This document shows, one piece after another, positions 11,143-26,450 of a DNA stretch of 64,000 nucleotides. The notes under the pieces were generated by a model. It did not search any database and had not been told where the DNA came from. It saw only the letters and a program-made list of their open reading frames with translations. Numbering within the stretch: position 1 is the stretch's first letter; each line of letters opens with the position of its first letter. Origin of the DNA: Verrucomicrobiota bacterium (GTDB lineage: Bacteria; Verrucomicrobiota; Verrucomicrobiia; Palsa-1439); NCBI GenBank assembly GCA_037146675.1, contig JBAWWR010000001.1:260-64259 (forward strand), read 5' to 3'. The position numbers and the translations under genes are program-made.

Positions 11143-12288
11143 ATGCTCGAACGACTTGCTGGTTTTTTCACCTCCCTGCGGTTGACCGTTGTATTGTTAG
11201 CGCTCGGCTTGGTGTTGGTGTTTTGGGGAACAATAGCGCAAGTGCATCTCGGGTTGTACCAGGCGCAGAATGAATTTTTCCGGAGTTTTTTCATTTACTG
11301 GTCACCGGCCGCATCAGGATTGCGGATCCCCGTTTTTCCAGGCGGTTATTTAATCGGTGGGTTGCTGCTGGCTAATTTAGTAGTCTACAACCTTCGCTTT
11401 GATCGATCCGTCAAGCGCCAACCTGGTCTTGTGGTGATTCACATTGGCGTTGGATTGTTGCTCATCGGCCAATTATTAACAGATGTTTTCTCAGCCGAAA
11501 GCATGATGCACATGCGTAATGGTGAGACCAAGAATTACTCAGAGGCATCGAGTCATTTCGAATTGGCTGTGGTGGATAAAACAGAAGTGGCAACGGATCA
11601 AGTCGTGGCAATTCCTGAGGCGTTGCTTCAACGAAAAGCAGTGATTCGCCATCCGAATCTGCCATTCAATATTCAGGTGCGCACATTTTACAGCAACTCA
11701 GCGCTAGTAGAAAAACCGCAAGAAGGTTTTACACAGCTCAACACCTCCGGTGGTTTTGGTGCCGGCGCTTGGTGGCGTGAATTGCCGCACGAAGCTGAAA
11801 CGGATCGACGTGATATGCCGTCCGCCATTGTGGAGCTACGCACTCCGCAGGGTTCGCTGGGAACTTATCTAGTGTCCGCCTACCTTGATCAACCGCAGGT
11901 GGTAAGTCTCAACGGTCGCCAGTACGAGTTGACGTTGCGCCCTGAACGCTTCTACAAACCGTTTAATCTACATCTGGTCGAGTTCCGCCACGATAAGTAT
12001 CCCGGCACAGATATCCCTAAGAACTTTTCCAGCCGCGTTCGTGTGCAGCGACCGGATACCGGCGAAGATCGCGAAGTGTTGATCTATATGAATAATCCAC
12101 TGCGCTACAATGGCGACACTTATTACCAAGCGAGTTTCGATACGGACAATCAAGGCACAGTGTTGCAAGTTGTCCATAATCCCAGCTGGCTCACGCCATA
12201 TTTCTCGTGCGTCCTAGTAGGCTTGGGATTGGTCTGGCAATTCCTACGCCATCTCATCGGATTCGCCGCAAAACGCAAAGCAACATGA
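11143..12288 (+). CDS. ccsB: cytochrome c biogenesis protein CcsB/ResB-like (short form)
   Basis: 381 aa. ResB-like N-terminal TM helix, a periplasmic domain and C-terminal TM helices. The stop overlaps the ccsA ATG (ATGA). Confidence 0.65.
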   Translation: MLERLAGFFTSLRLTVVLLALGLVLVFWGTIAQVHLGLYQAQNEFFRSFFIYWSPAASGLRIPVFPGGYLIGGLLLANLVVYNLRFDRSVKRQPGLVVIHIGVGLLLIGQLLTDVFSAESMMHMRNGETKNYSEASSHFELAVVDKTEVATDQVVAIPEALLQRKAVIRHPNLPFNIQVRTFYSNSALVEKPQEGFTQLNTSGGFGAGAWWRELPHEAETDRRDMPSAIVELRTPQGSLGTYLVSAYLDQPQVVSLNGRQYELTLRPERFYKPFNLHLVEFRHDKYPGTDIPKNFSSRVRVQRPDTGEDREVLIYMNNPLRYNGDTYYQASFDTDNQGTVLQVVHNPSWLTPYFSCVLVGLGLVWQFLRHLIGFAAKRKAT

Positions 12289-14219
12289 AATTTCTACTCA
12301 AGAGTCTGCCGTGGTTGTTTCTGGGGCTATTCGCCGCAGAGATTGGCGTTGTCATGTTGCCGAAGCCAGATGCTGAATTCCACACCGCAGAATTCGGTCG
12401 GCTGCCGGTCTTGCTTAATGGACGAATTCAACCATTTGATTCTGTTGCACGGAATTCACTGCTGCAAATCCGTAGTACCGGTGATGTGCCACTAGAAGAA
12501 GTACCGGCTTGGCAGTTTTGGCACCACCCACAGAAACTGAAATCGACTGCGTGGTTGCTCGAGGTGTTTTTCCTATCAGATGTAGCCGATACGCGGCCGA
12601 TTTTTCTGATTCACCACCCGGACATTATTAGCGAGTTGAAGCTCGGCGAGAAGGGTGTCGAAAAATCCGGTTTGCGCTACTACACGTTTGCCGAACTCGG
12701 ACCGGTCTTGAAGGAGATTTCTGATCAGGCTAACCAAGCGGGAAATATCGATGACGCGCAGCGCACGACATACCAGAAGCAAATACTTAAACTTGCCAAT
12801 GCGCTTGGCTTGTATCAGCAACTCAAAAACAGCATTCAGCCCGAAGGCACTGAGGACTTTGTTAAATTACTGGCGGCTTACCAAGCGGCAGCGCGCGCGC
12901 AGCAAGCGGGGCAAAAAACTGACGCTGAGGCGCTCCGTAAGCTAGCGGCTATCACTCAACAGTTTGAGAATGTCTCAAAAGACGCTTTGCCGCTTGTTAT
13001 TCCGCCCGCTAATCCTGCGGATAAAGATGCCTGGGTCAATGTCGGTACGAGCCTGCTCCGCGCTAATCATGCTGGCGCAGCTCTTCATCCTGCCACCGCA
13101 TTTTTTGCCCGAATGGCGACCACCTTTGGGCGCGATGACGCTGCGGGGTTCAACAGCGCTCTAGCTGATTATCGAAATTGGCTGACACCAAATTTCGCGC
13201 ATGAACTGGCAAAAGGCAGGGCGGAGTTTTATTTCAACCAGATCAAAATCTTTCTGCACGCGACCATTATTTATATTTTTGCCTTTGTACTGGCGGGTGC
13301 TGCCTTGTTGCTCTTTGCTCCGGCACCACGGCTTTCAGAGTCGTTGCGCCGCTCAGCTTATTACCTCATCGGGTTGGCGTTTATCGTGCACACCTTCGGT
13401 CTTATCTTCCGGATGGTGCTAGAAGGTCGCCCGCCGGTCACAAATCTTTATTCGTCCGCCATCTTTATTGGCTGGGGGGCGTGTGGGTTGGGCTGGGTGC
13501 TGGAACGAATTTATAAAATTGGTCTCGGTAGCGCCGTGGCCGGGCTGGCTGGCTTCGTTACACTGCTCATCGCGCACAACCTTGCGCTTGGCGGCGATAC
13601 AATGGAAATGCTCCGCGCCGTCCTCGATACAAACTTCTGGCTGGCTACACATGTAGTGACTGTAACGCTGGGGTATTCCTCAACATTTGTAGCTGGCACA
13701 CTGGCGATGGCGTACGTCGTGCTCGGTGTTTTTACGCCGTTGCTTCTGACAAAAGTTGGCGCAGACAAGGATGCCACACTTAGTTCGGCCTTGGCCAAGA
13801 TGGTCTATGCCATTGTTTGTTTTGCCACATTGTTCAGCTTTATTGGCACCGTGCTTGGCGGCATCTGGGCTGACCAATCGTGGGGGCGTTTCTGGGGGTG
13901 GGACCCGAAAGAAAATGGTGCCTTATTAATCGTTATCTGGAATTCACTTATCCTCCACGCCCGGTGGGGGCGACTGGTAGGCGCGCGCGGTCTGATGAAC
14001 CTTGCGCTCTTTGGTAGCATCGTTACCGCATTCTCCTGGTTCGGCGTAAATATGCTTGGAATCGGCTTGCATAGCTACGGGTTCATGGATGCCGCCTTCA
14101 AATGGCTGATGCTCTTTAATATCAGCCAAGCACTCTTTATTCTACTCGGCCTACTGCCATTGCGCCTGTGGAAAAGCTTGAAGAAGTTAACGCCGGACCA
14201 ACACGCGAACCTGAACTAA
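12285..14219 (+). CDS. ccsA: cytochrome c-type biogenesis protein CcsA with a long N-terminal periplasmic extension
   Basis: C-terminal WWD domain (WGRFWGWDPKENGAL) and a conserved His-containing TM core. An N-terminal extension of about 330 aa follows a TM anchor. Start is taken as the ATG giving MKFLLKSLPWLF, overlapping the ccsB stop. Confidence 0.8.
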   Translation: MKFLLKSLPWLFLGLFAAEIGVVMLPKPDAEFHTAEFGRLPVLLNGRIQPFDSVARNSLLQIRSTGDVPLEEVPAWQFWHHPQKLKSTAWLLEVFFLSDVADTRPIFLIHHPDIISELKLGEKGVEKSGLRYYTFAELGPVLKEISDQANQAGNIDDAQRTTYQKQILKLANALGLYQQLKNSIQPEGTEDFVKLLAAYQAAARAQQAGQKTDAEALRKLAAITQQFENVSKDALPLVIPPANPADKDAWVNVGTSLLRANHAGAALHPATAFFARMATTFGRDDAAGFNSALADYRNWLTPNFAHELAKGRAEFYFNQIKIFLHATIIYIFAFVLAGAALLLFAPAPRLSESLRRSAYYLIGLAFIVHTFGLIFRMVLEGRPPVTNLYSSAIFIGWGACGLGWVLERIYKIGLGSAVAGLAGFVTLLIAHNLALGGDTMEMLRAVLDTNFWLATHVVTVTLGYSSTFVAGTLAMAYVVLGVFTPLLLTKVGADKDATLSSALAKMVYAIVCFATLFSFIGTVLGGIWADQSWGRFWGWDPKENGALLIVIWNSLILHARWGRLVGARGLMNLALFGSIVTAFSWFGVNMLGIGLHSYGFMDAAFKWLMLFNISQALFILLGLLPLRLWKSLKKLTPDQHANLN

Positions 14220-14297
14220 CGCATTCGAATAGCAATCCGTTGACACGCGTGTGAAACCATTGCAAGCCAGTCGGCATCGTGTTATGAAAACTAACAC

Positions 14298-15728
14298 ATG
14301 CAAGGTGGCCATTATAAACCTTCATGGCAGCGTGATACTGAAGTTTTCGTTGTCAGCGCGCTGATTCTTTATCTTCAACTGGTACTGATTCGCTGGATCG
14401 GCACTGAAATTCGTATCTTTGCGTATCTGGGTAATCTTATTTTGGTCGCGTGCTTTTTCGGTACTGGGCTAGGTTGTTATCGCTCAGCACTGCCGGTATC
14501 GTTGACACGACTCGGGATCTACCTCTTACTGTTGACTGGTCTTGTGGCTAATCCACTGCATCTTGAATCTCTGAATTTAAGAAATCTGATTGATTGGCTG
14601 GCTGGGTTCGAAGATTCGCCAATGTGGGGTATGTTTATTGCGCCGCAACAAAGTCGAGTTGTTGTGGCGCTGGGTGTCGTGGGCGGGCTGTTGTATCTCA
14701 TAATCTTTATGTTCGTTCCCATAGGGCAGGTCCTTGGACGTGCCCTTAGTGAGCATCCTCATACAATTCAGGCATATTCTGTCAACATTATCGGTAGTCT
14801 GTCAGGAATCTGGCTATTTGCGGTCATGAGTTGGTGCCGGGCGACTCCGGTGGAATGGTTTGGGTTACTGGCAATTCTCGCAATTGTGTTGGCGTATGTG
14901 ACGGGCCATCGGAACTGGTGGTTCGTGGTTGCGTTAGGAATTATAGTTTGTTTTGTCTGGATCGGACAATCCAGCGGAGTACGCACCATCTGGTCGCCAT
15001 ATCAAAAGCTTGAAGTGCGACACCCTGTTTTAGCGGATTCACTCAAACAGGAGGCGCTTGATGGTGCGATTTACACCATCGCCGCCAACGGCACTGGCTA
15101 TCAACTGATATTGAATCTGGCCGATGATTTTCTGCGCACTCATCCCCGCCTTTACAACTTGGATCAAGCCCGGCTCAGTCATTACAATCTGGCCTTTCAA
15201 TTCAAACCCAGGATCCACCGCCTGCTCATTTTGGGCGCGGGCGCGGGAAACAATGCCGCAGCAGCCTTGCGCCACGGCGTGGAAGAGATTGATTGTGTTG
15301 AAGTCGACTCGGAGATTTACGCGCTGGGTAAAGAACTGCATCCTGAACGACCCTACAACTCACCGCGCGTTCACATGCATGTTACCGATGCGCGAGCGTT
15401 TTTGAAATCGGCAACCGGCTCTTACGACATGATTTGGTTCGCCTTACTCGATGCGCAGCCTGGCTCGTCTTATAGCAACCGGCAGCTTGATCATTATATG
15501 TACACGTTACAATCGTTAAAGGAGGCGCAACGGTTGCTAACACAGGATGGTATTTTGCTGGTAAATCTTGCGTCCCGGCGCAAATGGATTAGCGAGCGGC
15601 TTTACGGGATATTGCAGCAGGTCTTTGACCGGCCCCCAATGAGCTTTCTCCTGGAATTCAACGGCGCGTCGGAATACGGCCCGCCCGGTGAACTCACCCT
15701 GGTGACCGGCAACGGCGCGCCAACCTAG
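14298..15728 (+). CDS. membrane-anchored polyamine aminopropyltransferase (spermidine synthase)-like protein, N-terminal part ending at an in-frame TAG
   Basis: 476 aa. N-terminal multi-TM region plus PABS/SAM-MTase domain (LILGAGAGNNAAAALRHGVEEIDCVEVD, DMIWFALLDAQ). Terminates at TAG 15726-15728, but the frame continues. Confidence 0.75.
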   Translation: MQGGHYKPSWQRDTEVFVVSALILYLQLVLIRWIGTEIRIFAYLGNLILVACFFGTGLGCYRSALPVSLTRLGIYLLLLTGLVANPLHLESLNLRNLIDWLAGFEDSPMWGMFIAPQQSRVVVALGVVGGLLYLIIFMFVPIGQVLGRALSEHPHTIQAYSVNIIGSLSGIWLFAVMSWCRATPVEWFGLLAILAIVLAYVTGHRNWWFVVALGIIVCFVWIGQSSGVRTIWSPYQKLEVRHPVLADSLKQEALDGAIYTIAANGTGYQLILNLADDFLRTHPRLYNLDQARLSHYNLAFQFKPRIHRLLILGAGAGNNAAAALRHGVEEIDCVEVDSEIYALGKELHPERPYNSPRVHMHVTDARAFLKSATGSYDMIWFALLDAQPGSSYSNRQLDHYMYTLQSLKEAQRLLTQDGILLVNLASRRKWISERLYGILQQVFDRPPMSFLLEFNGASEYGPPGELTLVTGNGAPT

Positions 15729-15878
15729 CAAAATCTGCCGACTAACATCGAAGGCGACTATCTTCGGTCATGCCGCTGGCTAGCGCCGTCCCCGGCCACG
15801 ACCCGACTTACGACCGATGACTGGCCGTACCTATATCTTGAGCACGCCAAAATTCCGCGCCTACACTGGCTCGCCGCA

Positions 15879-16463
15879 TTGTCCCTGTTCGGTACAGTCC
15901 TGTTGCTGCGCAACAGGACGTTTGGCGGCCGTGCTAAGTTGAATTGGTATTACTTCTTTTTGGGCGCCGCATTTCTTCTGCTTGAAGTTCAAACAGTTAG
16001 CCGCGCCACACTCCTGTTCGGGATGACATGGATGGTGAATGTAATCGTGATTTCAGCTGTGCTGGGAATGATTCTATTGGCCAATCTCGTCGCCGCGTGT
16101 TGGCCAAAGTGGCCGGTCTGGATTGTTTATGCCGAACTGCTAGCCACAATTGCCGCGTTGGTACTTGTGCCGCTTGATTCCTTCAACTTGCTTACCGGTA
16201 CAATGAAGTTGGTGGCGGCAAGCACATTCCTAACAGCGCCGGCTTTCTTTGCTGGGTTAATTTTCATTCAATCCTTTGCCGTCTGTACCACCAAGTCGCA
16301 GGCGTTGGGTTCCAATCTCATCGGCGCGCTGGTAGGTGGCTTACTCCAATCGCTCTCATTCGTGACCGGGATCCGCTCGCTCATCGTTCTCGATGGAATT
16401 TTTTATCTCATGGTTTTCTGGCTGCGACCGCGCGCTGGTCGCCGATGCAACGTTGCGGCGTAA
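15879..16463 (+). CDS. C-terminal TM portion of the same aminopropyltransferase-like protein (same frame, open from 15729)
   Basis: Same reading frame as 14298..15728. The interval 15729-15878 is open and encodes TTDDWPYLYLEHAKIPRLHWLAALSLF, a motif expected to be contiguous with the PABS domain. This makes the pair a single gene interrupted by one TAG. Confidence 0.5.
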   Translation: MSLFGTVLLLRNRTFGGRAKLNWYYFFLGAAFLLLEVQTVSRATLLFGMTWMVNVIVISAVLGMILLANLVAACWPKWPVWIVYAELLATIAALVLVPLDSFNLLTGTMKLVAASTFLTAPAFFAGLIFIQSFAVCTTKSQALGSNLIGALVGGLLQSLSFVTGIRSLIVLDGIFYLMVFWLRPRAGRRCNVAA

Positions 16464-16663
16464 ATAAAACGCACATTTCAATCCATCTCACGATACAGGC
16501 TTCGGTAATTTGACTACGCGGAACGGCGGCGCCCCCGCCTCATCATGGCAAATTCTGATCTCAGTTGGATGGAAGCCTATGCCTTAGGTGCTTTGACGTG
16601 CTAGGCCTGACAAAGCTTAATATGGACTCGAGACTTAGGCCCGGTGTTTTTTAGCCTGTCAGC

Positions 16664-17248
16664 TTACGGAAGAAATTCTTTGGGATAAGTCCAAGTGGTG
16701 GGGAACTTTCCAGCCTTCTTGGCTTTGAGATAAACGGCGGCCCGGGCTGAGATCGCTTTGGTTTCCGCGGTTTGGATGTGGGTGGCGCACTGCTCACGCG
16801 CGGCATCCTTCAATACCTTCAGCGTTTCATTGATCTTTGCCAGTTGGAGAGTAATGGCTAGCTTGTTGGCTTGTTCCACTTCGGCTGAGATGGTTACGAG
16901 CGGAGCGGGAGTTGGGATTGCGACAGGGAGAATGACCGGAGCGATGACAGCTTTGCGTGTTTTTCTGATTTTCGCAATGGCTGTCTTGGCGCGTGCCTTG
17001 GGCTTGGAGCGAAAGGTGCTGTTTGCTTTCAGCACGCTAGATTTAGTTGCGAGGACGCGGGCTTTATTCTTTGGGTTTCGGCTGAACGGTTTGACGTTGC
17101 GTTTGGTTGACACCTGTCGATCATATGCGAATCGTGGCTGCTTGTCAAAAGCCGACATTAGCGCACGGCTGTACGATGCGTGACAAAAGTGGCAGATGCG
17201 CTGTTTTGTGGTAGCTTGCTGCTTCATGAATTCGTTGTGGCTAATCAT
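16664..17248 (-). CDS. hypothetical Lys/Arg-rich protein
   Basis: 194-aa ORF in a locally lower-GC region. The N-terminus overlaps the cstA 5' end. A likely shorter start would be MSAFDKQ at about 17158. Confidence 0.3.
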   Translation of the reverse strand: MISHNEFMKQQATTKQRICHFCHASYSRALMSAFDKQPRFAYDRQVSTKRNVKPFSRNPKNKARVLATKSSVLKANSTFRSKPKARAKTAIAKIRKTRKAVIAPVILPVAIPTPAPLVTISAEVEQANKLAITLQLAKINETLKVLKDAAREQCATHIQTAETKAISARAAVYLKAKKAGKFPTTWTYPKEFLP

Positions 17249-19052
17249 CGGTGCATTAGCGGCGTTTGCGGTGGCTTACCGGCTCTATGGCGCGTTCCTC
17301 GCAGCTAAGGTCTGTGTTCTCGACGACTCGAAGGTGACACCAGCGCACCGCCTTGAGGACGGGGTTGATTATCATCCGACGAGCAAGCTGGTGCTGTTCG
17401 GCCATCATTTTGCGGCGATTGCAGGGCCGGGGCCGTTGGTTGGGCCGGTTTTGGCAGCGCAATGGGGTTATGCGCCAGGCTTTATCTGGATTGTCATTGG
17501 CGCGTGCTTAGCGGGTGCGGTGCATGATTTTGTGATTCTCTGGGCATCGGTCCGGCAAGATGGGTTGTCGCTGCCGAAGATTGCGCGGGAAAACATCGGG
17601 CCGGTTGCTGGCTTGACGAGTTCGGTGGCAACGCTATTCATCATCATTTGCACGTTAGCGAGTATCGGCTTGGTGGTGGTAAACGCATTGGCGGACAGTT
17701 CGTGGGGGATGTTCACGATTTTGGTGACGATCCCGGCGGCGTTGCTCACCGGGTTGTGGATGTACAAGATTCGGCCCGGCAAGGTCGCGGAGGCGTCGGC
17801 CATCGGTGTGACGATTGTGATGGCGGGTGTGATTTTCGGACGGACATTTGCGAATTCCAGCATGGGACATGCGTTGTTATTCGATAAGACGACGTTGTCA
17901 CTAATGTTGCCGGTGTATGCGTTTGTGGCGGCGTGCTTGCCGGTATGGGTGTTGATGTGTCCGCGCGATTATCTCAGCTCGTACATGAAAATCGGCGTGA
18001 TGGTGGTGCTTGGCGCCGGTCTTTTCGTCGCGCACCCGACGTTAAAGATGCCGGCTCTGACGCCGTTTATTCACGGTGGTGGGCCTGTCATTTCGGGAAC
18101 GGTCTGGCCGTTTGTGTGCATCGTGATTATGTGTGGGGCGATTTCCGGATTCCATGCGCTAGTCGGTTCCGGCACGACGCCGAAGATGATTTACCGGGAA
18201 TCCGACATCCGTGTGATTGGTTACGGCGCAATGCTGGTGGAAGGTTTCGTGGCGGTGCTGGCGTTAGTGGCGGCGTGCGCGTTGGAGCCCGGCGATTATT
18301 TCGCAATCAATACCGCGCCGGAGACTCACGCGTCGATGGTGCAAACGGTCGCGGCACAGCACGGTTGGGATTTGGCGGTGCGCGAGTTGCCGGCGCTGGA
18401 GCAGGGGACGCAGGAGCATCTGGCTGGGCGGGTCGGTGGCGCGGTGACGTTGGCGGTCGGGATGGCGAAGGTGTTTTGCAGCTTACCGGGGCTGAAGCAG
18501 TTGATGAGTTATTGGTACCATTTCATTATCATGTTCGAGGCGTTGTTCATTCTGACATTGCTAGAAACCGGTACGCGGGTGGCGCGGTTTGTGTTTCAGG
18601 AGGCGGCGGCGACGTTCACGCCGAGAGCGGTAATTGGTGGCAAGCCGCATTGGGGCGTGAACATCGCGATGAGTGCGCTGGTCTGCACGGCGTGGGGATA
18701 TATGCTTTTTTCCGGCAATCTGAACACGCTTTGGCGGATGCTTGGTATCGTCAATCAATTACTCGCGTGCATCGCATTGGCGGTCGGAACGACGTGCTTG
18801 CTCCGGTACGCGCCGAAACGCCGGTATGCATTGTGTACCGGTATCCCGTTTGTGTTTTTGCTGGTAACGGTGCTCGTGGCTGGTGTAGAAAGCGTTCACC
18901 AGTGGTGGGGGCAAATTGATACTGCGCCGGCCGGTCAGGTGTTGATGTTGCGGATGACGTGCGTTTTGGCGACGGCGATGCAGGCCTTAACGGTGGTGAT
19001 CGCTCTCGACTCGTTTCGGGCTTGGTACCGGCTCACTAGCCGGCGACACTGA
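17226..19052 (+). CDS. cstA: carbon starvation protein A (CstA family peptide/pyruvate transporter)
   Basis: Start is taken at MNSLWLIIGALAAF. Polytopic membrane protein with the CstA N-terminal signature (DYHPTSKLVLFGHHFAAIAGPGPLVGPVLAAQWGY). Confidence 0.9.
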   Translation: MNSLWLIIGALAAFAVAYRLYGAFLAAKVCVLDDSKVTPAHRLEDGVDYHPTSKLVLFGHHFAAIAGPGPLVGPVLAAQWGYAPGFIWIVIGACLAGAVHDFVILWASVRQDGLSLPKIARENIGPVAGLTSSVATLFIIICTLASIGLVVVNALADSSWGMFTILVTIPAALLTGLWMYKIRPGKVAEASAIGVTIVMAGVIFGRTFANSSMGHALLFDKTTLSLMLPVYAFVAACLPVWVLMCPRDYLSSYMKIGVMVVLGAGLFVAHPTLKMPALTPFIHGGGPVISGTVWPFVCIVIMCGAISGFHALVGSGTTPKMIYRESDIRVIGYGAMLVEGFVAVLALVAACALEPGDYFAINTAPETHASMVQTVAAQHGWDLAVRELPALEQGTQEHLAGRVGGAVTLAVGMAKVFCSLPGLKQLMSYWYHFIIMFEALFILTLLETGTRVARFVFQEAAATFTPRAVIGGKPHWGVNIAMSALVCTAWGYMLFSGNLNTLWRMLGIVNQLLACIALAVGTTCLLRYAPKRRYALCTGIPFVFLLVTVLVAGVESVHQWWGQIDTAPAGQVLMLRMTCVLATAMQALTVVIALDSFRAWYRLTSRRH

Positions 19053-19847
19053 TAAAATCTGCTCGAGCCAACCGAAGATGACGCCCGATAATTCCTTCAC
19101 ACCGGTCAGCATCTCAACGCCGTGCAGATTACCGGAACAGGCGACCAATTCGTTTGATACCACCACCTGCCCGGCGCGATGACGTAATTCAATAAGTCGC
19201 TTGGAAGATTCAAAGGCAAACTCGTCGTCCCGGCTAACCACAATGCAGAGCGGCCGTTTGCCGAATCGGGCAATCACATCATCGGTGCGCAAGTTGCGAT
19301 AGGACAGTCCCGGGCTGAGCAGGATTAGGCCAGCTACTTCGTCATTGAACGCCGCATATCGGAGCGCGAGGTTGGCGCCGAGACTGGAACCAACAATCGC
19401 AATCCGGTGCTTATCGATTCCGGGCTGGCTCGCCAACCAATCGTAAGCTTGATTGACATCGAGCAGCATATCGGTGAAATCCTGCGGACCAAAATTCTGG
19501 TAATCGACCGTCTTAACGCCGTCGGCGGTCAGGCGGCGTGTGCTGTCGCCTTGGCCGCGAAGATCAATAGCGAGGACGGCAATGCCGTTCATCTGAAACA
19601 GTGGGGCGACCGCTCTCCACTCTTCGTGGTTCTTGCCGTACCCGTGTAATAGCAACACCGCCGCCGCTGAATTCGTGGCGACTGGGTAATACACCGCCGC
19701 CAATTCCAAGTCGTCACGCGTTAGCAACTTAATTGGTCGAACATTATCCGCACCAACCTGACCGGCAAGTGCAACGACAAGAATGAAGAGAATTATTCGC
19801 ACGCCGGCCACTCTATCACAGCCGCCAAGGTGGGCAATTGTTTTCAA
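18987..19847 (-). CDS. secreted alpha/beta hydrolase (dienelactone hydrolase / prolyl oligopeptidase-like)
   Basis: 286 aa. Signal peptide, HGYGKNHEEW, nucleophile elbow GSSLGA. 4-nt overlap with the upstream ClC gene. Confidence 0.75.
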   Translation of the reverse strand: MKTIAHLGGCDRVAGVRIILFILVVALAGQVGADNVRPIKLLTRDDLELAAVYYPVATNSAAAVLLLHGYGKNHEEWRAVAPLFQMNGIAVLAIDLRGQGDSTRRLTADGVKTVDYQNFGPQDFTDMLLDVNQAYDWLASQPGIDKHRIAIVGSSLGANLALRYAAFNDEVAGLILLSPGLSYRNLRTDDVIARFGKRPLCIVVSRDDEFAFESSKRLIELRHRAGQVVVSNELVACSGNLHGVEMLTGVKELSGVIFGWLEQILSVSPASEPVPSPKRVESDHHR

Positions 19848-21925
19848 GACGCCGTGAGTGCGCTGACAAAGCGGGTGATCCCATCGCCTTGACCGATGAC
19901 GGCCAGCCGGTCGCCTTCGTGCAATTGCATTTGCGGCCCCGGTAACTCAATCAAATCCTTGCCGGTCACCGGATCGCGCCGTTTGACGGCGAGAACATGG
20001 ACGCCAAAGCTGGACCGCGGTGCGAGTTTGGCGAGCGTCTGCCCGACGCATTGCGAGGGTAACTCAATCGTGTGTAACTCAAATCCTTCCGGTAACTCGA
20101 CAAACATGTCGCGCTTCTCGTCTTGATCTTGGACGACAAAATGGCCGAGCACTTGCCGCTTGCGTAAAATCTCCTGACTGTAGACGCCGATGATGTCGCG
20201 TTTGGACATCCAGCCAATCAGCCTTCGGTCAGTCAAATTATTGACTACCGGTAAGCGCTCGCAATTTTGCTGCCAGAACTTTTCCATCGTATCGGCCAGA
20301 TTATCCGTCGGGATGACAACTTCAAACGTGTCGTCGAGCAGGTCGTGGGCGACGACGGTCTGGAGGGCGTCGCCTTGGCTCAGCATTTCCTTGAGCGCGT
20401 GGAGCCGGATCGCACCGAGGAATTTGCCATTACCGTCGGTTACGTAGAGGAAATTGTACGGCTCCTTAAGGAAGCGTTCGACGACGCCGGTAAAAGGCAC
20501 GGAGTGATTTACGGCAGTGACGTCGTCGTGCATAACGTCGGCAACGCGCAACGACTGCATCACGCTGCCTTCCGGTCCGCGCGGGAGTTTGACGCCACGC
20601 CGCGCGAGCGCCTCGTCATGAATTGATTTGCCGCCAAGCAATCGCGTTGTGAAATGGCTGACAATGCAGACGAACATCAGCGGCAGGACGATTTGATAGG
20701 AATTGGTTTGCTCGAAAATCATCATGATGGCAGTGATCGGTGCGTGGGTCGTGCCGGCTACGATGGCGCCCATACCGACCAATGCATAAGCGCCTTGTTC
20801 AGCAGTGTGCGCCGGGAACAAGAGATGAATGCGATGCCCAAACGCGCCGCCCAGCAACGCGCCAATCATTAACGACGGCATGAACAACCCACCGGCACCA
20901 CCAGAGCCGAACGTCAGCGCCGTTGCCAGCAGTTTGGCGACCAGTAGAATGAGCAGCATCTTAAACGGCAGGCTCACATCCTCGTGCAGCACCATGTTGA
21001 CTGGGTCGTAGCCATTGCCGAACACGTGCGGCAGGAACCAGCCGATGACGCCAAGCAATCCGAAGCCGAGTACCGGTTTAATCCAGCGCGGTCCCGGTAG
21101 TTTCTCAAACACGTCCTCAGTCCAATATAAAATTTTTCCGAACAACAACGAGACCACACCACCGAGAATGCCCAACACGAGATACGCCGGCAGCTCCCAC
21201 GCCGACACCAACTCATAGTGTGGAATTACAAACCGGGGCAGGTTCCCCATCGCACTGCGGAATACCAGTGTCGACAACACCGATGCGACCACAACCGGTC
21301 CGAAGACATCGAGCGCAAAGCTGCCCATCAAAATCTCGAGCGCAAACATCGAGCCACCGATCGGCGAATTGTACACGGCCGCGAGCGCTGCGGCGGCCGC
21401 TGCGCAGACCAGCATCCGCAAATGGCGCGGCTCCAGTCGGAACTGGCGTCCTAATTTTGAGCCTAGTGCTGCCGATAGGCGCATCATCGGGCCTTCGCGT
21501 CCGAGTGATCCACCGGTCGCCAGTGTCGCTAAAGCTGCGCACAACCAACGCAACGTCTCGCCAAGCGAAATGACGCCGCCCTTTAGCGTAATTGCCTGAA
21601 TCAACCGGCCGGTCCCGGCTCCGCGTGTTTCGATTCGTAAGCCCCAGCCAATGATGCCTACCAGAATTCCACCGGCGAGCGGAATTAAAATGCACCACCA
21701 GCGCGGCTCAAGGCTTTGCGCGGCCGCCAACAAACTTGTGCCGCTACCCCAGATATGGTTCTGCAAAAACGCCAGCACATGCGCGACGGCCACCGACACC
21801 AGTCCGACCACCACGCCGACCACCGGTAATAAGAATAGAAACGCGTTCTCGCTCGGCGTGCGCCGCGACAACTGAGCCGCCGCGCGCGCTTGCCAGCCGA
21901 TCAGTCGACTGCGGAGATTACGCAT
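19844..21925 (-). CDS. ClC-family chloride channel/antiporter with tandem CBS domains and a C-terminal TrkA-C (RCK_C) domain
   Basis: 693 aa. ClC selectivity motifs (GSGIP-like GGSLGREGP, GxFxP-like GLFMPS), CBS pair, and a C-terminal LHEGDRLAVIG RCK_C-like segment. Confidence 0.85.
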   Translation of the reverse strand: MRNLRSRLIGWQARAAAQLSRRTPSENAFLFLLPVVGVVVGLVSVAVAHVLAFLQNHIWGSGTSLLAAAQSLEPRWWCILIPLAGGILVGIIGWGLRIETRGAGTGRLIQAITLKGGVISLGETLRWLCAALATLATGGSLGREGPMMRLSAALGSKLGRQFRLEPRHLRMLVCAAAAAALAAVYNSPIGGSMFALEILMGSFALDVFGPVVVASVLSTLVFRSAMGNLPRFVIPHYELVSAWELPAYLVLGILGGVVSLLFGKILYWTEDVFEKLPGPRWIKPVLGFGLLGVIGWFLPHVFGNGYDPVNMVLHEDVSLPFKMLLILLVAKLLATALTFGSGGAGGLFMPSLMIGALLGGAFGHRIHLLFPAHTAEQGAYALVGMGAIVAGTTHAPITAIMMIFEQTNSYQIVLPLMFVCIVSHFTTRLLGGKSIHDEALARRGVKLPRGPEGSVMQSLRVADVMHDDVTAVNHSVPFTGVVERFLKEPYNFLYVTDGNGKFLGAIRLHALKEMLSQGDALQTVVAHDLLDDTFEVVIPTDNLADTMEKFWQQNCERLPVVNNLTDRRLIGWMSKRDIIGVYSQEILRKRQVLGHFVVQDQDEKRDMFVELPEGFELHTIELPSQCVGQTLAKLAPRSSFGVHVLAVKRRDPVTGKDLIELPGPQMQLHEGDRLAVIGQGDGITRFVSALTAS

Positions 21926-21970
21926 ACCGGCTTATCTAACAAACTCCAGCTGATTGCGACAGCAAATTTC

Positions 21971-22234
21971 ATGCTTGCATACTGCCAAAAACACAGCACA
22001 TTTACCGGTGTGAGTGTCACATTACCATCTCATGTAGCGATTGCGGCGCGCGCCTACGAGCTGTATATCCAACGCGGCCGGCTCGATGGCTACGAAGTGG
22101 ATGATTGGCTGCAGGCCGAATACGAGTTGATGCAGTTGCCGGTGGAAAGAATTGCCGAATTGGACGCGCCCAAAGATAAGGATAAGAAGCACCGGTCCTT
22201 GGTGAATGCGGTGCGTTCTGCAATGATGTTCTAG
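21971..22234 (+). CDS. DUF2934-like small protein
   Basis: Motif IAARAYELYIQRGRLDGYEVDDWLQAE, characteristic of DUF2934. Start is taken at the internal ATG (MLAYCQKH). Confidence 0.45.
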   Translation: MLAYCQKHSTFTGVSVTLPSHVAIAARAYELYIQRGRLDGYEVDDWLQAEYELMQLPVERIAELDAPKDKDKKHRSLVNAVRSAMMF

Positions 22235-22538: not shown

Positions 22539-24575
22539 TTGCTCACCGGCGATAAAGTCTTTAGCATTTTCGCCATCAAGACAAAGTTCAATAAAAGTTC
22601 CCGCTGGTTGCGTTGCCTCGGTGTCGGCAATGCCGACCAGCCATCGTTTTTACTGATCGCGCTCTTTGCCTTCGCCAGTATGATCATCATTGGTTATCGT
22701 TTTGCTGTCTGGGATCAACTGTTGTACCTGAGTTTTGTCGACCGGTATTTCCAGCCGATTCTTGATCATCCCGGCGATCTCTACATCAGTCATTTTCTCT
22801 GGCACAGTTACACGACATTCTGGATGCTGATTTACCCAATCAAGCAGCTATTTGGCTGGGAATGGCCGCTTTTTATCATCCACGTGCTGGTCAAGTTTTT
22901 CATCTTCTGGGGTGTCTGGTCGTTGGCCTTCGCGTTGACTAAAGACCGACTGACCGCGTGGCTCAGTGTCCTGCTGATGCTGATGAACAAGGCGGTCATC
23001 GGCGGCGGAGTCAACTTCTACATGGCCGATACAATCACCCGCTACGTCGCGCTGCCATTCATGCTGTTCGGCATTAAAAAACTTTGGGATCGGAAATATC
23101 TCGGCGCGGCGTTGCTTTTCGGAATCGGCGTCCAGATTCACATTTTGACTGTGACCTATTGGTTTTTGGCGATCATTATTGGCATGGGTATTTACCGGTT
23201 TTTTAACGCCACGGCATCTTCGCAGACTGATCAGCAAAACAGGCACCGGCATATCGCCAAGTCAGTCGGGTTGTTTCTTTTGCTGGCGCTTCCGATTATC
23301 ATTTGGTTTGGCATTGCGGAATGGGGAGCGTCGAGCCCTCCGGCAAATGCGGATTTCATCGATTTAATCCACAACCATTTCGGTTACGTATTCCTGACGG
23401 ATTACGACTCCCTAACGTGGAAGACGTTGTTTCTATTTGTTGTGATTATTGTCGTCGCCTTGCGCTACTTACCCCAAAACGACTGCAGCCGCTGGTATCT
23501 GCCGTTCACGTTTGCAATCATCGCGGTCATGGGTATTCACTTCCTGGCCGCTGATGTATTTTTCTGTCACCCCATTCTCAAGCACCAAATGTGTCGCATC
23601 ATCGACCTGCTCGGCCTGTTGACCATGTTTGGCGCGGCGCGAATCCTTGCGGTGCACGCTCAGCGGGCCGGCTGGCAGCGTTGGCTTGCCGCTCCGGTCG
23701 CCGCGTTGTTTCTCGTTGCCACCGTCACGCCGGGAATTAACGCCGTCTTACTTGCCACGGCCACGCTCTTTCTTATCTTGCTCGTTCTTGAGCCTCAACC
23801 CGGTCGCTTTACAATCCCGGCCTTCCTAATCCTGCTCATCTTCATTTTTGCGCAACTTTGTTATCCCGCCAATTTCGGCATCGGTTCATTGCGCCGGCCA
23901 ATCTGGACCCTGCTCATTGTGAGCTTGCTAGCAATTGCGATTTTGTTTTTTACCGGTTGGTTCGCCACGCTGACCAATCGGCGCCTCATTATCAGAAACG
24001 CGACATTTGTCATTTGTTTGACCGGTCTCATATTGCTGGTCGCCTTCGAACGGATTGCCATCGCTGAAATCAGTTCGAATTATTCAAAAGCTCCGCTCAC
24101 CAATCAAGAGCATTGGGACCGCATGGTGCATCGCACACGGGAAAACCTCGATTGGCCGGGGCAGGGGATGCAAACTGATTGGATTCAGTTCCAGCTCTGG
24201 ATTCGCGACAACACGCCGCCCGGTACCATGTTCTTCGTTCCGCCGGGCCTGAATGGTTTCCGCGTTTTCTCACAGCGCAACGCTTTCTTTGAAGGCTACG
24301 ATTGTGAACCGACCATTTTCAACATCAGCTACGCTACTGATCTATTGGAACGCATGAAAGTCTTGGGGTATTCGTCAGCGCCGGCAAGCAGTCGGAATGC
24401 CGCCGATAAGTCCGAGCAAATATATTACGCCGTCAAGCCGTCTGAATGGCAGGAGCTATCACAACAATGGGACGTGCCGTATCTCATCATGAGCCGGCCA
24501 GTGAAGTCGCCATTTCAGAAACTCTACCAACGCGGCGACCTGACACTCTGGCGCATTCCCACGCCAGCACCTTAG
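22539..24575 (+). CDS. large polytopic membrane protein with a C-terminal extracytoplasmic domain (GT-C-like glycosyltransferase candidate)
   Basis: 678 aa. About 12 predicted TM helices, then a soluble C-terminal domain of about 200 aa. Immediately followed by the ABC exporter (19-nt gap). Confidence 0.6.
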   Translation: MLTGDKVFSIFAIKTKFNKSSRWLRCLGVGNADQPSFLLIALFAFASMIIIGYRFAVWDQLLYLSFVDRYFQPILDHPGDLYISHFLWHSYTTFWMLIYPIKQLFGWEWPLFIIHVLVKFFIFWGVWSLAFALTKDRLTAWLSVLLMLMNKAVIGGGVNFYMADTITRYVALPFMLFGIKKLWDRKYLGAALLFGIGVQIHILTVTYWFLAIIIGMGIYRFFNATASSQTDQQNRHRHIAKSVGLFLLLALPIIIWFGIAEWGASSPPANADFIDLIHNHFGYVFLTDYDSLTWKTLFLFVVIIVVALRYLPQNDCSRWYLPFTFAIIAVMGIHFLAADVFFCHPILKHQMCRIIDLLGLLTMFGAARILAVHAQRAGWQRWLAAPVAALFLVATVTPGINAVLLATATLFLILLVLEPQPGRFTIPAFLILLIFIFAQLCYPANFGIGSLRRPIWTLLIVSLLAIAILFFTGWFATLTNRRLIIRNATFVICLTGLILLVAFERIAIAEISSNYSKAPLTNQEHWDRMVHRTRENLDWPGQGMQTDWIQFQLWIRDNTPPGTMFFVPPGLNGFRVFSQRNAFFEGYDCEPTIFNISYATDLLERMKVLGYSSAPASSRNAADKSEQIYYAVKPSEWQELSQQWDVPYLIMSRPVKSPFQKLYQRGDLTLWRIPTPAP

Positions 24576-24593: not shown

Positions 24594-26450
24594 TTGTTCA
24601 CACCGGCAGAAGATGCTTACCTCTGCGGTATGGCCGACCGAAATTCTAACTGGATGTTGAGCCGCCGGCTCCTCGCGCTGGCGTGGCGTTACCGGTCAGG
24701 TTGCCTGAAAGTGCTTGGCATCCAAACTGTCATTCTCGCGCTCGGTTTATGCGGGCTCAGTTTTTGGGGGCTCGGCATTGATTATCTCCGCCTCTTGCTC
24801 GCCGGTAAATCAATGCATTGGCCGTTTGGCTGGCAAACGCCAGTGGGCTGGACGCCGGTCATGGTGGTCACGGCCATTGGTGGCGCGATTCTCGGTTTCG
24901 CGGCGATTCGCGCCGTGCTGGGTTATCATTACACAGTCGCGTTGACCGGTCTGACGCAAGGTCGGATCGTCGTGGACTTGCGCGCTGCGGTCTATGACAA
25001 ACTTCAGCGCCTGAGCTTTCGGTTCTTCGACGACAACGCGACCGGCGCCATCATCAACCGCGTCACCGGCGACGTGCAGCAAACCCGCGCGTTCGTGGAC
25101 GATGTAGTGATGCAGCTCATCATCATGGCGTTGTCGCTTTCGGTCTACCTTGTCTACATGCTGAATCTTCATCCCAAGCTGACGCTGGCCTGCCTCGTCA
25201 CGACGCCGGTCCTCTGGTTGATCTCGTCGTATTATTCGCGCATGCTCCAGCCGGAATACCGTCGCAACCGTGAACTCGTGGACGAGATGATCCGTAAACT
25301 GGCCGAGTACATTCAGGGCATCGCGGTCATCAAAGCTTTCGCGCGCGAGCCGGAAGTTACTGCCGACTTCCAAACCGCCAACCGAGCTGTCCGCGACCAG
25401 CAGCAAAAAATCTTCTGGCGCACGAGTCTCTTCGGTCCTGGTATTTCCTTCATCACGCAAATCAACATCTTCATCGCGCTGCTCTACGGCGGCTACCTTG
25501 TCATTTACGACGAATTCCCACTCGGCCTCGGCCTTGTCGTCTTCGTTGGGCTCGTCCAACAATTTTCCGCGCAAGTCCAAAACCTTGCCACCGTCAACAA
25601 CACTGCGCTCCAAAGTCTGACCGGCGCACGACGCGTGTTTGAAATTCTCGATGCGCCGGTGGAAATTCAGTCACCAGCCCGGCCGGTCAAACTGCCGGTA
25701 GTAAAAAGCGGACGGCAAGTCCGGTTCGAACACGTCTGGTTCAGTCACATTCCCGGCGAAATTGTATTGGAGGCAGTGGACTTCGAAGTCAAAGCCGGCC
25801 AGCGCGTCGCCATTCTCGGCGCGACCGGTGCCGGCAAGAGTTCACTGATGAGTCTGATTCCGCGTTTTTATGATCCCACGCGCGGCCGGGTGCTGCTCGA
25901 CGGTGTCGATCTCCGGCAGCTTGATCTCGACGAACTCCGCCGGAACATCGGCACGGTGTTTCAGGAAAGCTTCCTATTCAGCAACACCATTGCCGCCAAC
26001 ATTGCGTTCGGCCATCCCGAAGCCAGCCGGGACCAAATCGAACGCGCCGCGCAGATTGCTTCCGCGCACGAGTTCATCATGCAAATGCCGAAAGACTACG
26101 ACACGGTTTTGCGCGAGACCGGCTCAAATCTGTCCGGCGGCCAAAAGCAACGCCTGGCGCTTGCGCGTGCTATTTTGCTCGATCCACCGATTTTGTTGCT
26201 CGACGATCCCACAGCCGCGGTTGATTCGCAGACCGAAAACGAAATTCTGGAAGCGCTGGACAACGCGATGCGCGGACGGACGACATTTATGGTGGCGCAC
26301 CGGCTCAGCGCGTTGCGCCGGTCGGACTTCGTGGTGGTGCTCGATGGTGGCCGGGTGGCACAAGTCGGTACGCACGCCGAGTTGCTGCGGCTACCGGGCC
26401 ATTACCGGCAGATTGCCGAGCTACAATTTGCCGAAGGCGTTACCGGTTAG
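24594..26450 (+). CDS. ABC transporter, fused permease/ATP-binding protein (MsbA-like exporter)
   Basis: 618 aa. Six-TM domain, Walker A (GATGAGKSSL), signature (LSGGQKQRLALAR), Walker B (LLLDDPTAAVD). Stop is TAG. Confidence 0.9.
   Translation: MFTPAEDAYLCGMADRNSNWMLSRRLLALAWRYRSGCLKVLGIQTVILALGLCGLSFWGLGIDYLRLLLAGKSMHWPFGWQTPVGWTPVMVVTAIGGAILGFAAIRAVLGYHYTVALTGLTQGRIVVDLRAAVYDKLQRLSFRFFDDNATGAIINRVTGDVQQTRAFVDDVVMQLIIMALSLSVYLVYMLNLHPKLTLACLVTTPVLWLISSYYSRMLQPEYRRNRELVDEMIRKLAEYIQGIAVIKAFAREPEVTADFQTANRAVRDQQQKIFWRTSLFGPGISFITQINIFIALLYGGYLVIYDEFPLGLGLVVFVGLVQQFSAQVQNLATVNNTALQSLTGARRVFEILDAPVEIQSPARPVKLPVVKSGRQVRFEHVWFSHIPGEIVLEAVDFEVKAGQRVAILGATGAGKSSLMSLIPRFYDPTRGRVLLDGVDLRQLDLDELRRNIGTVFQESFLFSNTIAANIAFGHPEASRDQIERAAQIASAHEFIMQMPKDYDTVLRETGSNLSGGQKQRLALARAILLDPPILLLDDPTAAVDSQTENEILEALDNAMRGRTTFMVAHRLSALRRSDFVVVLDGGRVAQVGTHAELLRLPGHYRQIAELQFAEGVTG

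What the first reader, a model, noticed from the sequence alone, without database searches (positions are those of the whole stretch)
15700..15900. Single in-frame TAG splits a membrane polyamine-aminopropyltransferase-like gene
ORFs 14298..15728 and 15879..16463 are in the same frame. The only interruption is TAG at 15726-15728. The 150 nt between them are open and encode TTDDWPYLYLEHAKIPRLHWLAALSLF, which continues directly into the C-terminal TM region of the second ORF. So an otherwise intact gene of about 720 codons is interrupted by one amber codon. This is either a recent pseudogene, a base-call or assembly error, or a stop-codon readthrough site. TAG is a functional terminator elsewhere in the window (infB, ribF, the ABC transporter), so general recoding is unlikely.
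Basis: seen in the sequence. Interest (0 to 1): 0.5.

Follow-up and report, generated by a model that had tools for sequence, protein, structure and literature searches.

The report
Nonsense-mutation pseudogene of a membrane enzyme
A single TGG-to-TAG mutation has cut a roughly 720-codon membrane enzyme gene in two in an uncultivated Verrucomicrobiota bacterium; it is real and shared by every strain sampled, but it looks like an ordinary decaying pseudogene, not a recoding site.

Summary
ORF 14298..15728 ends at TAG 15726-15728. The same frame stays open for 150 nt and continues into ORF 15879..16463. Together they match, end to end, a family of about 710-720 aa single-chain proteins: a transmembrane (TM) bundle, a spermidine-synthase-fold domain, then a second TM bundle.

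All 109 full-length homologues run straight through the TAG column. The closest one (67% identity) has Trp (TGG) there, so one G>A transition explains the stop.

It is not a base-call error. The TAG is present in five other assemblies from different samples (at least three haplotypes, 99.4-100% nucleotide identity). A sixth contig has the same 476 aa + 150 nt + 194 aa layout. No intact allele was found.

TAG is a normal terminator in the window (ribF, infB and others). I found no tRNA-CUA, no RNA structure and no Rfam hit. The invariant DDWPYLYL motif lies in the stretch that has no start codon, so a working two-gene split is unlikely.

Polymorphism among TAG-bearing strains is replacement-rich (10 nonsynonymous : 7 synonymous, against 6:20 in cstA+CLC). 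It hits near-invariant residues (P338S, F424L, V699D/G).

Best reading: a nonsense pseudogene fixed in this population and drifting. Interest is low.

The parts
14298..15725 (+). Upstream fragment (476 codons). It holds the N-terminal transmembrane bundle (about 7 helices, residues ~9-223) and the spermidine-synthase-fold domain (residues ~229-471).
   Evidence: ORF list and translation. Pfam PF01564 scores 41.3 bits against a cut-off of 22.9, at residues 298-421. Hydropathy. AlphaFold model of homologue P0002 and its PDB matches to SpeE structures. NCBI annotates this ORF as MEI8313821.1, hypothetical protein.
15726..15728 (+). Premature amber stop (TAG), probably derived from Trp TGG by one G>A transition.
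   Evidence: It is the only stop in the frame. P0002 reads ACC TGG CAG where the window reads ACC TAG CAA. The column is a sense codon in 109/109 full-length homologues. The TAG is present in L004, L005, L006, L007 and L008.
15729..15878 (+). A 150-nt open in-frame stretch with no ATG/GTG/TTG. It encodes the linker helix and the family's invariant TTDDWPYLYL...IP.LH motif.
   Evidence: Translation. The ORF listing places the first start codon after the TAG at 15879. Residues D507, D508, W509, P510 and P520 are (near-)invariant in the 109 homologues. No promoter-like or terminator-like site lies in this stretch. The RNA fold z-score is +0.67.
15879..16463 (+). Downstream ORF (194 codons from TTG). 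It corresponds to the C-terminal transmembrane bundle of the ancestral gene and is probably untranslated.
   Evidence: It is co-linear with residues ~528-717 of the homologues. Hydropathy peaks lie at 582-709. The model shows helices 520-707. NCBI calls only a 143-aa piece, MEI8313822.1.
15309..15309 (+). Derived replacement P338S, found on the TAG-bearing window haplotype only.
   Evidence: The window has TCG where L004 and L005 have CCG. Pro occurs in 109/109 homologues.
15567..15567 (+). Derived replacement F424L, found on the window haplotype only.
   Evidence: The window has CTT where L004 and L005 have TTT. Phe occurs in 108/109 homologues.
16393..16393 (+). Codon 699 reads Asp (window) or Gly (other haplotypes) where the family has Val, inside a transmembrane helix.
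   Evidence: GAT against GGT. Val occurs in 105/109 homologues.

Best explanation
This is a pseudogene made by a single nonsense mutation. The ancestral gene encoded one polypeptide of about 720 aa: an N-terminal TM bundle, a spermidine-synthase-fold domain, a DDWPYLYL linker and a C-terminal TM bundle. A G>A transition changed Trp-477 (TGG) to TAG. Translation now stops after the last beta-strand of the soluble domain. The product is a 476-aa fragment that lacks the invariant linker motif and the whole C-terminal TM bundle. The downstream 244 codons are still open only because too little time has passed for further stops or indels to appear. The allele is fixed, or nearly so, in this species-level population of an uncultivated Verrucomicrobiota bacterium, and the locus is now drifting. 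Shown here: the stop, its presence in several strains and samples, the single-gene architecture of all homologues, the TGG in the nearest homologue, and normal use of TAG as a terminator. Inferred: loss of function, absence of translation downstream of the TAG, and relaxed selection.
For: (1) All 109 full-length homologues (680-800 aa) are continuous through alignment column 477, and none of the shorter hits ends there.
(2) The nearest intact homologue, P0002, has ACC TGG CAG where the window has ACC TAG CAA.
(3) The TAG is present in L004, L005, L006, L007 and L008, which come from five other samples. The P0001 contig has the same 476 aa + 150 nt + 194 aa layout. There are at least three nucleotide haplotypes at 99.4-100% identity.
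(4) No intact allele was found. Nothing lies between 67% and 98% identity in the 5.8-billion-protein search, and a 178-aa query spanning the site found no fragment above 90% identity that crosses it.
(5) Window against L004 gives 8 nonsynonymous: 4 synonymous differences, pN/pS about 0.6. The neighbours give 0.07 (cstA) and 0.08 (CLC). Counting distinct polymorphisms gives 10:7 against 6:20 in cstA+CLC (Fisher p=0.026) and against 13:28 in all four neighbouring genes (p=0.078). An omega of 0.08 is rejected (p=0.0005), while omega=1 fits.
(6) On the TAG background the window haplotype carries derived states at (near-)invariant positions: P338S (109/109 Pro), F424L (108/109 Phe), and V699D, or G in other haplotypes (105/109 Val). 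Three of the 10 replacement polymorphisms fall in the 20% of positions that are at least 95% conserved, which is what random placement would give.
(7) The window protein departs from at least 95%-conserved columns 9 times. The median for intact homologues is 1, and only 4 of 109 reach 9.
(8) A relative-rate test shows the part after the TAG is faster in the window lineage than in P0002 (25:15), while the part before it is not (30:51). Fisher p ranges from 0.003 to 0.11 depending on the outgroup.
(9) The invariant DDWPYLYL motif lies in the 150 nt that have no start codon, so no separately initiated product could contain it.
(10) The family occurs as tandem paralogues in a related contig, three copies in L009, so losing one copy is plausibly tolerated.
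(11) The AF2 model of P0002 (pLDDT 90.5, pTM 0.92) is one compact assembly. The TAG position falls just after strand 466-471, so the truncation removes helix 484-491 and all helices from 520 to 707.
Against: There is no second stop, frameshift or indel anywhere in 2166 nt in any haplotype, and the DDWPYLYL motif is still perfect.

The polymorphism counts are small, and pN/pS of 0.3-0.5 cannot be excluded. Two neighbouring genes also have high ratios (hydrolase 3:2, orf164 4:6).

The N-terminal part is not accelerated on the long branch since the split from P0002. The 476-aa fragment could therefore have stayed useful for some time.

Diversity between the window and L004 is patchy. There are no differences in 14318-15042 or in 15568-16392, even at synonymous sites. 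This points to recombination or recent shared ancestry and weakens any rate argument.

Only 64 kb of the genome were available. I could not check for a suppressor tRNA elsewhere or for an intact paralogue in the same genome.
Confidence: 0.8

Rival explanations
1. The gene was truncated but the truncated product still works. The 476-aa product (N-terminal TM bundle plus catalytic-fold domain) keeps a function on its own, much like the shorter PRK03612-type membrane-anchored SpeE proteins (model length 522) that lack a C-terminal TM bundle. Only the region downstream of the TAG is dead.
For: The upstream part shows no acceleration relative to P0002 since their split (30:51), whereas the downstream part does (25:15). 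The L004/L005 haplotype keeps consensus residues at codons 287, 338, 354, 407 and 424 of the upstream part, and P0001 also at 393. NCBIfam contains a 522-position membrane-type polyamine aminopropyltransferase model, PRK03612, that partly matches residues 299-425.
Against: The window haplotype has replaced two (near-)invariant residues of the catalytic-fold domain, P338S and F424L. Seven of the 11 differences from L004 in the upstream part are replacements. The model of the intact homologue is one compact unit (pTM 0.92), which suggests the two TM bundles pack together. No natural member of this family ending near column 477 was found among the hits examined.
Confidence: 0.12
2. TAG 15726 is read through, either as a programmed event or through a suppressor: a near-cognate tRNA, a suppressor tRNA, or pyrrolysine. 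Some full-length protein is still made, and that keeps the downstream frame intact.
For: The downstream 244 codons are open and about 75% identical to P0002. The invariant motif is intact. The TAG is shared by all haplotypes, and no intact allele was seen. The base after the stop is C (TAG-C). From my own recollection of the E. coli literature, this tends to be a weaker termination context; I did not test it here.
Against: The stop is confined to one species-level population, and 109/109 homologues have a sense codon at this column. TAG ends at least six other genes at their homologous C-termini. No other gene in the window is interrupted by an in-frame stop. There is no tRNA-CUA in the window. 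There is no stable RNA structure downstream (z=+0.67) and no Rfam hit. Conserved residues downstream have been lost in this lineage: H551Y, R601C, D665T, V699D/G. An open downstream frame is expected anyway for a young pseudogene.
Confidence: 0.05
3. The TAG is a sequencing or assembly artefact, and the real genome has a sense codon there.
For: The window comes from a metagenome-assembled genome. A single-base difference is all that is needed.
Against: The same TAG appears in assemblies from five other samples that were made by different pipelines (ENA, JGI, Logan) and differ by 0-13 SNPs across the gene. A further contig has the identical ORF layout.
Confidence: 0.01
4. This is a natural two-gene architecture, in which the family is normally or sometimes encoded as separate N- and C-terminal genes.
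For: A second search found C-terminal-only ORFs of 260-310 aa on long contigs (P0157, P0158, P0162). They start near column 470.
Against: In L011 and L012 the whole gene is present but hops between frames (3>1>2>3 and 2>1>3), and the neighbouring genes are fragmented too. That pattern indicates long-read indel errors. L010 holds only a C-terminal remnant next to transposase genes. In the window, the conserved motif lies upstream of the first possible start codon.
Confidence: 0.02

Closest known systems
Nonsense-mutation pseudogenes in bacterial genomes ('split' genes annotated as two adjacent hypothetical proteins)
   Same: One premature stop lies in an otherwise co-linear gene. The ancestral sense codon is one transition away (TGG>TAG). 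The gene belongs to a family that is multi-copy in related genomes. Replacements are accumulating at conserved sites.
   Different: The allele is shared by every strain sampled across at least six metagenomes, and it has no additional lesions yet. It is older than the strain divergence but young on the scale of gene decay.
Spermidine synthase / polyamine aminopropyltransferase (SpeE; Pfam PF01564; e.g. PDB 1uir, 6o63, 2o06)
   Same: The central domain passes the Pfam gathering score. It aligns to plant SPDS1 at E=4e-7, including the Asp that corresponds to the 'gDG' Asp of SPDS1. The model of the intact homologue superposes on SpeE structures with target-normalised TM-scores of 0.6-0.68.
   Different: The GGGDGG signature is GAGAGN. 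All NCBIfam SpeE equivalog scores are far below their cut-offs (47 against 260 at best). The domain is sandwiched between two TM bundles that match nothing among the top PDB hits. The enzymatic activity is therefore unknown and may not be aminopropyl transfer.
Membrane-anchored SpeE-like proteins of the PRK03612 type (model length 522: N-terminal TM helices plus a SpeE domain)
   Same: An N-terminal TM region is followed by a SpeE-fold domain. The truncated 476-aa product resembles this layout superficially.
   Different: The score is 37 bits against a cut-off of 472. The present family always carries a further DDWPYLYL linker and a C-terminal TM bundle.
Programmed stop-codon readthrough and amber recoding (pyrrolysine; leaky UAG contexts)
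   Same: An in-frame UAG is followed by a long, conserved, open continuation.
   Different: The stop is not conserved across species. There is no stimulatory structure and no suppressor tRNA in the window. TAG is used as an ordinary terminator, and conserved residues downstream are being lost.

Membership tests
Pseudogene by nonsense mutation | Homologues encode one continuous protein across the interrupted position | tested here: met
   109/109 full-length homologues have a sense residue at column 477, and no shorter hit ends there. One tblastn alignment of P0002 spans the TAG.
Pseudogene by nonsense mutation | The stop can be derived from the ancestral sense codon by a single substitution | tested here: met
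   The closest homologue has TGG (Trp) flanked by the same ACC and CAR codons, and TGG>TAG is one G>A transition. Ancestry is inferred from one outgroup at 67% identity. The column is variable in the wider family (L/P/V/I/T/Q).
Pseudogene by nonsense mutation | The stop is real in the DNA, not an assembly error | tested here: met
   The TAG is in L004-L008, which come from five other samples and include several haplotypes. The P0001 contig has the same layout.
Pseudogene by nonsense mutation | Relaxed purifying selection after inactivation | tested here: inconclusive
   10 nonsynonymous: 7 synonymous against 6:20 in cstA+CLC (p=0.026) and 13:28 in four neighbouring genes (p=0.078). Derived P338S, F424L and V699D/G at (near-)invariant columns. 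Nine departures at columns that are at least 95% conserved, against a median of 1. The result is suggestive, but counts are small and diversity is patchy.
Pseudogene by nonsense mutation | No full-length protein is produced | not testable with these tools
   This needs proteomics or ribosome profiling of the source community.
Programmed readthrough / amber recoding | The in-frame stop is conserved at the same position in diverged orthologues | tested here: not met
   The stop occurs only in one population that is at least 99.4% identical. All other homologues (67% identity or less) have sense codons.
Programmed readthrough / amber recoding | A decoding agent exists (suppressor or Pyl tRNA-CUA) or TAG is reassigned genome-wide | tested here: not met
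   The window holds only tRNA-His and tRNA-Pro. TAG ends ribF, infB, a GATase gene and others at the ends of their profiles. No other gene is interrupted. The remainder of the genome was not available.
Programmed readthrough / amber recoding | A stimulatory RNA element lies downstream of the stop | tested here: not met
   The fold of 15720-15850 has z=+0.67, and 150 of 200 shuffles fold at least as well. No relevant Rfam match at E up to 1.
Programmed readthrough / amber recoding | Purifying selection on the codons downstream of the stop within stop-bearing lineages | tested here: inconclusive
   Only 2 nonsynonymous and 2 synonymous polymorphisms lie downstream. On the long branch, the downstream part is faster than in P0002.
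Spermidine synthase / polyamine aminopropyltransferase (SpeE) | Match to the PF01564 domain above the gathering score | tested here: met
   41.3 bits against a cut-off of 22.9, residues 298-421.
Spermidine synthase / polyamine aminopropyltransferase (SpeE) | SpeE fold (N-terminal beta domain plus Rossmann-like domain) | tested here: met
   Tested on the intact homologue P0002. Foldseek matches 1uir, 3anx, 2o06 and 6o63 at E 1e-8 to 1e-7, with target-normalised TM-scores of 0.6-0.68.
Spermidine synthase / polyamine aminopropyltransferase (SpeE) | GGGDGG motif, whose Asp selects decarboxylated SAM (this role is from my own knowledge of SpeE structures) | tested here: not met
   The window and the family consensus read GAGAGN where SPDS1 reads GGGDGG.
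Spermidine synthase / polyamine aminopropyltransferase (SpeE) | Reaches an NCBIfam equivalog cut-off for SpeE | tested here: not met
   The best score is 47.4 bits against a cut-off of 260 (NF002010). PRK03612 scores 37.4 against 472.
Natural split (two-gene) architecture | The downstream module has its own start codon upstream of its conserved motif, and the split is seen in accurate genomes of relatives | tested here: not met
   There is no ATG/GTG/TTG in 15729-15878, which encodes DDWPYLYL. The apparent split homologues are frameshifted long-read contigs or a remnant.

The most novel reading that the evidence does not exclude
The TAG allele may be maintained, not merely tolerated. One version is that low-level readthrough of TAG-C supplies a small, possibly regulated, amount of full-length enzyme alongside an abundant truncated form. 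Another is that the loss-of-function allele swept adaptively through the population by recombination. Either would fit its presence in every haplotype and the SNP-free stretch around it (15568-16392 between the window and L004).
Probability: 0.05. Interest if true: 0.5.

Novelty: new member of a known kind. Interest (0 to 1): 0.15.

Why it matters
This finding matters mainly for annotation. The two adjacent 'hypothetical proteins' in the NCBI record (MEI8313821.1 and MEI8313822.1) are the two halves of one inactivated gene and should be flagged as a pseudogene.

It is also a clean small example of a nonsense allele fixed across strains of an uncultivated Verrucomicrobiota species, caught before any secondary lesion has appeared.

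The family itself (TM bundle, SpeE-fold domain without the GGGDGG motif, DDWPYLYL linker, TM bundle, often in tandem copies) has no established function. It is more interesting than the stop codon. If readthrough were shown, it would be a rare bacterial case, but nothing here points that way.

Tried and rejected
(1) Base-call or assembly error. Rejected: the TAG is in five other assemblies, plus one contig with the same layout.

(2) Global TAG reassignment. Rejected: TAG terminates ribF, infB, a GATase gene, an ABC transporter and an AraC-type regulator at or near their profile ends. No other gene in the window is interrupted. The one other same-frame pair (22539..24575 and 24594..26450) is two complete genes.

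(3) Suppressor tRNA. None in the window. The rest of the genome could not be searched.

(4) Readthrough-stimulating RNA or a known RNA family. No structure signal and no Rfam hit.

(5) Internal promoter, terminator or restart. Nothing lies between the ORFs, and there is no start codon in the 150-nt gap.

(6) Naturally split homologues. P0157, P0158 and P0162 looked like candidates but are frameshifted long-read contigs or a remnant.

(7) Intact allele in the population. Not found with the full-length query or with a 178-aa query spanning the site.

(8) GTDB genome scan with peptide patterns from the protein: no relative found. JGI metagenome scan with a 29-nt pattern around the TAG: no match. 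Neither scan added relatives.

(9) Whether P0002 is a paralogue in the same genome. Unresolved. It sits in a different gene neighbourhood. The Obg protein encoded next to it has no NCBI member in its 90% cluster, which hints at a different organism. One look-up was wasted on wrong minus-strand coordinates.

(10) Literature search for this membrane SpeE-like family: nothing relevant.
Full report
OBSERVATION

The window has an ORF at 14298..15728 (476 aa, ATG start) that ends in TAG at 15726-15728. A second ORF at 15879..16463 (194 aa, TTG start) lies in the same frame. Translating 14298..16463 in one frame gives 722 codons with a single internal stop. The other two frames of this stretch are closed.

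WHAT THE GENE IS

The joined product hits Pfam PF01564 (Spermine_synth) at 41.3 bits against a cut-off of 22.9, at residues 298-421. It does not come near any NCBIfam SpeE equivalog cut-off: the best score is 47 against 260.

A search of 5.8 billion proteins returned 695 relatives. The top ones are 700-740 aa single proteins, mostly from Verrucomicrobiota metagenome bins, named 'spermidine synthase' or 'SAM-dependent methyltransferase' by their sources. An exact look-up identifies the window as an NCBI MAG, 'Verrucomicrobiota bacterium'. There the two pieces are annotated as separate hypothetical proteins: MEI8313821.1 (476 aa) and MEI8313822.1 (143 aa).

An AlphaFold model of the closest intact homologue, P0002, was built from a 91-sequence alignment. 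It is confident (pLDDT 90.5, pTM 0.92). It shows about seven N-terminal helices (9-223), a beta/alpha domain (229-471), a short helix (484-491), an extended segment carrying the invariant DDWPY motif, and then seven helices from 520 to 707. The middle domain superposes on spermidine synthase and aminopropyltransferase structures (1uir, 3anx, 2o06, 6o63) with target-normalised TM-scores of 0.6-0.68.

In the alignment to plant SPDS1, the GGGDGG motif is GAGAGN in this family, while the Asp corresponding to the 'gDG' Asp of SPDS1 is kept. So the fold is SpeE-like, but the activity is unknown. 'Polyamine aminopropyltransferase' should not be taken literally.

IS THE SPLIT NATURAL?

No. In an alignment of 109 full-length homologues, every sequence has a sense residue at column 477 (L 34, P 23, V 17, and others). 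Residues 505-523 (TTDDWPYLYL..IP.LH) are the most conserved block of the family. That block is encoded in the 150-nt stretch with no ATG/GTG/TTG, so neither ORF could contain it. Hits shorter than 680 aa are N-terminally truncated and pass through column 477.

A second search turned up C-terminal-only ORFs on long contigs that start near column 470. Their loci explain them. In L011 and L012 the whole gene is present but hops between reading frames, and the neighbouring genes are fragmented as well, which is typical of long-read indel errors. L010 holds only a remnant next to transposase genes.

WHERE THE STOP CAME FROM

P0002 (67% identity) reads GNGLPT-W-QDLP where the window reads GNGAPT-*-QNLP. 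At the DNA level this is ACC TGG CAG against ACC TAG CAA. One G>A transition is enough. The unusual sequence just after the stop (IEGDYLRSC) is shared with P0002, so it is lineage-specific and not decay.

IS IT AN ERROR?

No. The exact downstream ORF and close variants of it occur on contigs from other samples. Five of those contigs have DNA available. L007 and L008 are identical to the window over the gene. L004, L005 and L006 differ by 12, 13 and 6 substitutions, with no indels. All five read TAG at the same codon. A further contig (P0001, 98% identical protein) has the same layout of 476 aa, 150 nt and 194 aa.

No intact allele was seen. Nothing lies between 67% and 98% identity in the full-length search. 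A 178-aa query centred on the site found no hit above 90% identity that crosses it.

IS TAG RECODED OR READ THROUGH?

TAG ends six other long ORFs in the window. For ribF, infB and a GATase gene, the Pfam profiles reach their final positions 2-12 residues before the TAG. A scan for single stops flanked by at least 100 open codons on each side found no other interrupted gene. The only other real-gene case (TAG at 24573) separates two complete genes.

The window has only tRNA-His and tRNA-Pro. The 131 nt around and after the stop fold no better than shuffled sequence (z=+0.67). There is no Rfam match and no promoter-like or terminator-like site between the ORFs. Nothing positive supports readthrough. 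Basal leakiness cannot be excluded from sequence.

IS THE LOCUS STILL UNDER SELECTION?

Between the window and L004 the gene has 8 replacement and 4 silent differences, pN/pS about 0.6. The neighbours give 2:9 in cstA (0.07) and 2:8 in the CLC channel gene (0.08). Two other neighbours are less constrained: the hydrolase gene at 3:2 and an unknown 164-aa ORF at 4:6. Counting distinct polymorphisms over all haplotypes gives 10:7 for the split gene, against 6:20 for cstA+CLC (p=0.026) and 13:28 for all four neighbours (p=0.078). An omega of 0.08 is rejected (p=0.0005), omega=0.25 is marginal (p=0.085), and omega=1 fits.

Polarising the differences with the family alignment is more telling. At nearly every replacement site the window haplotype carries the derived state. 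Two examples are P338S, where 109/109 homologues have Pro, and F424L, where 108/109 have Phe. Codon 699 is Asp or Gly in the TAG-bearing strains, where 105/109 homologues have Val. Three of the ten replacement polymorphisms fall in the 20% of positions that are at least 95% conserved, which matches random placement.

Overall the window protein departs from such columns 9 times, against a median of 1 for intact homologues. On the longer branch since the split from P0002, the part after the stop has changed more in the window lineage (25:15). It has lost conserved residues there (H551Y, R601C, D665T, E684Q). The part before the stop has not changed more (30:51).

Caveats apply. The counts are small. 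Differences between the window and L004 are clustered: none in 14318-15042 or in 15568-16392, and 11 in 15043-15567. That pattern indicates mosaic ancestry, not protein-level constraint, because silent sites are equally invariant there.

CONCLUSION

The simplest account that fits everything is a TGG>TAG nonsense mutation that inactivated one member of a family which is multi-copy in related genomes. Three tandem copies are present in L009. The allele is shared by all sampled strains of this species and the locus is drifting, but it is still too young to show frameshifts or further stops.

A residual function for the 476-aa fragment is possible (about 0.1). Selected readthrough is unlikely (about 0.05). 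Sequencing error and a natural split are effectively excluded. I put the pseudogene reading at about 0.8.

The finding is real but ordinary. Its practical consequence is an annotation correction.

Noticed in passing
window 14318-22463 compared with L004: SNPs between the two haplotypes are strongly clustered. There are none in 14318-15042 or in 15568-16392 (about 6.5 and 7.3 expected; P about 0.002 and 0.0007). There are 11 in 15043-15567, then about 1 per 125 nt from 16393 onward. This looks like recombination mosaicism. The SNP-free stretch includes the TAG.
   Followed up: partly
window 16664-17248 (-): A Lys/Ala-rich ORF (164-194 aa) with no Pfam family has the highest silent-site diversity of the neighbourhood (pS 0.049). 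In one assembly the gene caller places a plus-strand 109-aa ORF here instead (L007 4976-5305), so the coding strand is uncertain.
   Followed up: no
window 16464-16663: The intergenic stretch after the split gene carries 7 SNPs in about 130 nt between haplotypes (16473-16601). This is the densest cluster in the compared region.
   Followed up: no
window 22539-26450: A DUF6798 gene (22539..24575) and an ABC transporter gene (24594..26450) are in the same frame, separated by TAG plus 18 nt. Both look complete, so this is a coincidence and not a second interrupted gene.
   Followed up: yes
L009 3513-10046: Three tandem paralogues (716, 740 and 724 aa) of the same TM / SpeE-fold / TM family lie head to tail in a 112-kb JGI contig, next to a PMT_2-like gene. 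The family's function is unknown.
   Followed up: partly
L010, L011, L012: In long-read-style contigs this family's gene and many neighbouring genes (DUF1501, BPD_transp_2, Peripla_BP_6) are broken into pieces by frameshifts. L010 keeps only a C-terminal remnant beside DDE transposase genes.
   Followed up: yes
window 14094-14381: Several independent assemblies begin at or just upstream of this gene: L004 at 14318, L005 at 14381, and the P0001 contig about 204 nt upstream of the start codon. This suggests an assembly-breaking variable or repeated region between ccsA and this gene.
   Followed up: no
window 11143-14219: The ResB-like ORF (11143..12288) and the CcsA-like ORF (12207..14219) overlap by 82 nt as listed. 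Another caller starts CcsA later (644 aa), so the listed GTG start at 12207 is probably too early.
   Followed up: no
L001/L002 compared with the window: The closest intact homologue, P0002, sits in a completely different gene neighbourhood (TRAM/tRNA-U5 methyltransferase, GYF_2, Obg, MscL, nuoABC). It also co-occurs with the split gene in at least four samples. Whether it is a paralogue in the same genome or belongs to a related organism is unresolved. The Obg protein encoded next to it has no NCBI member in its 90% cluster.
   Followed up: partly
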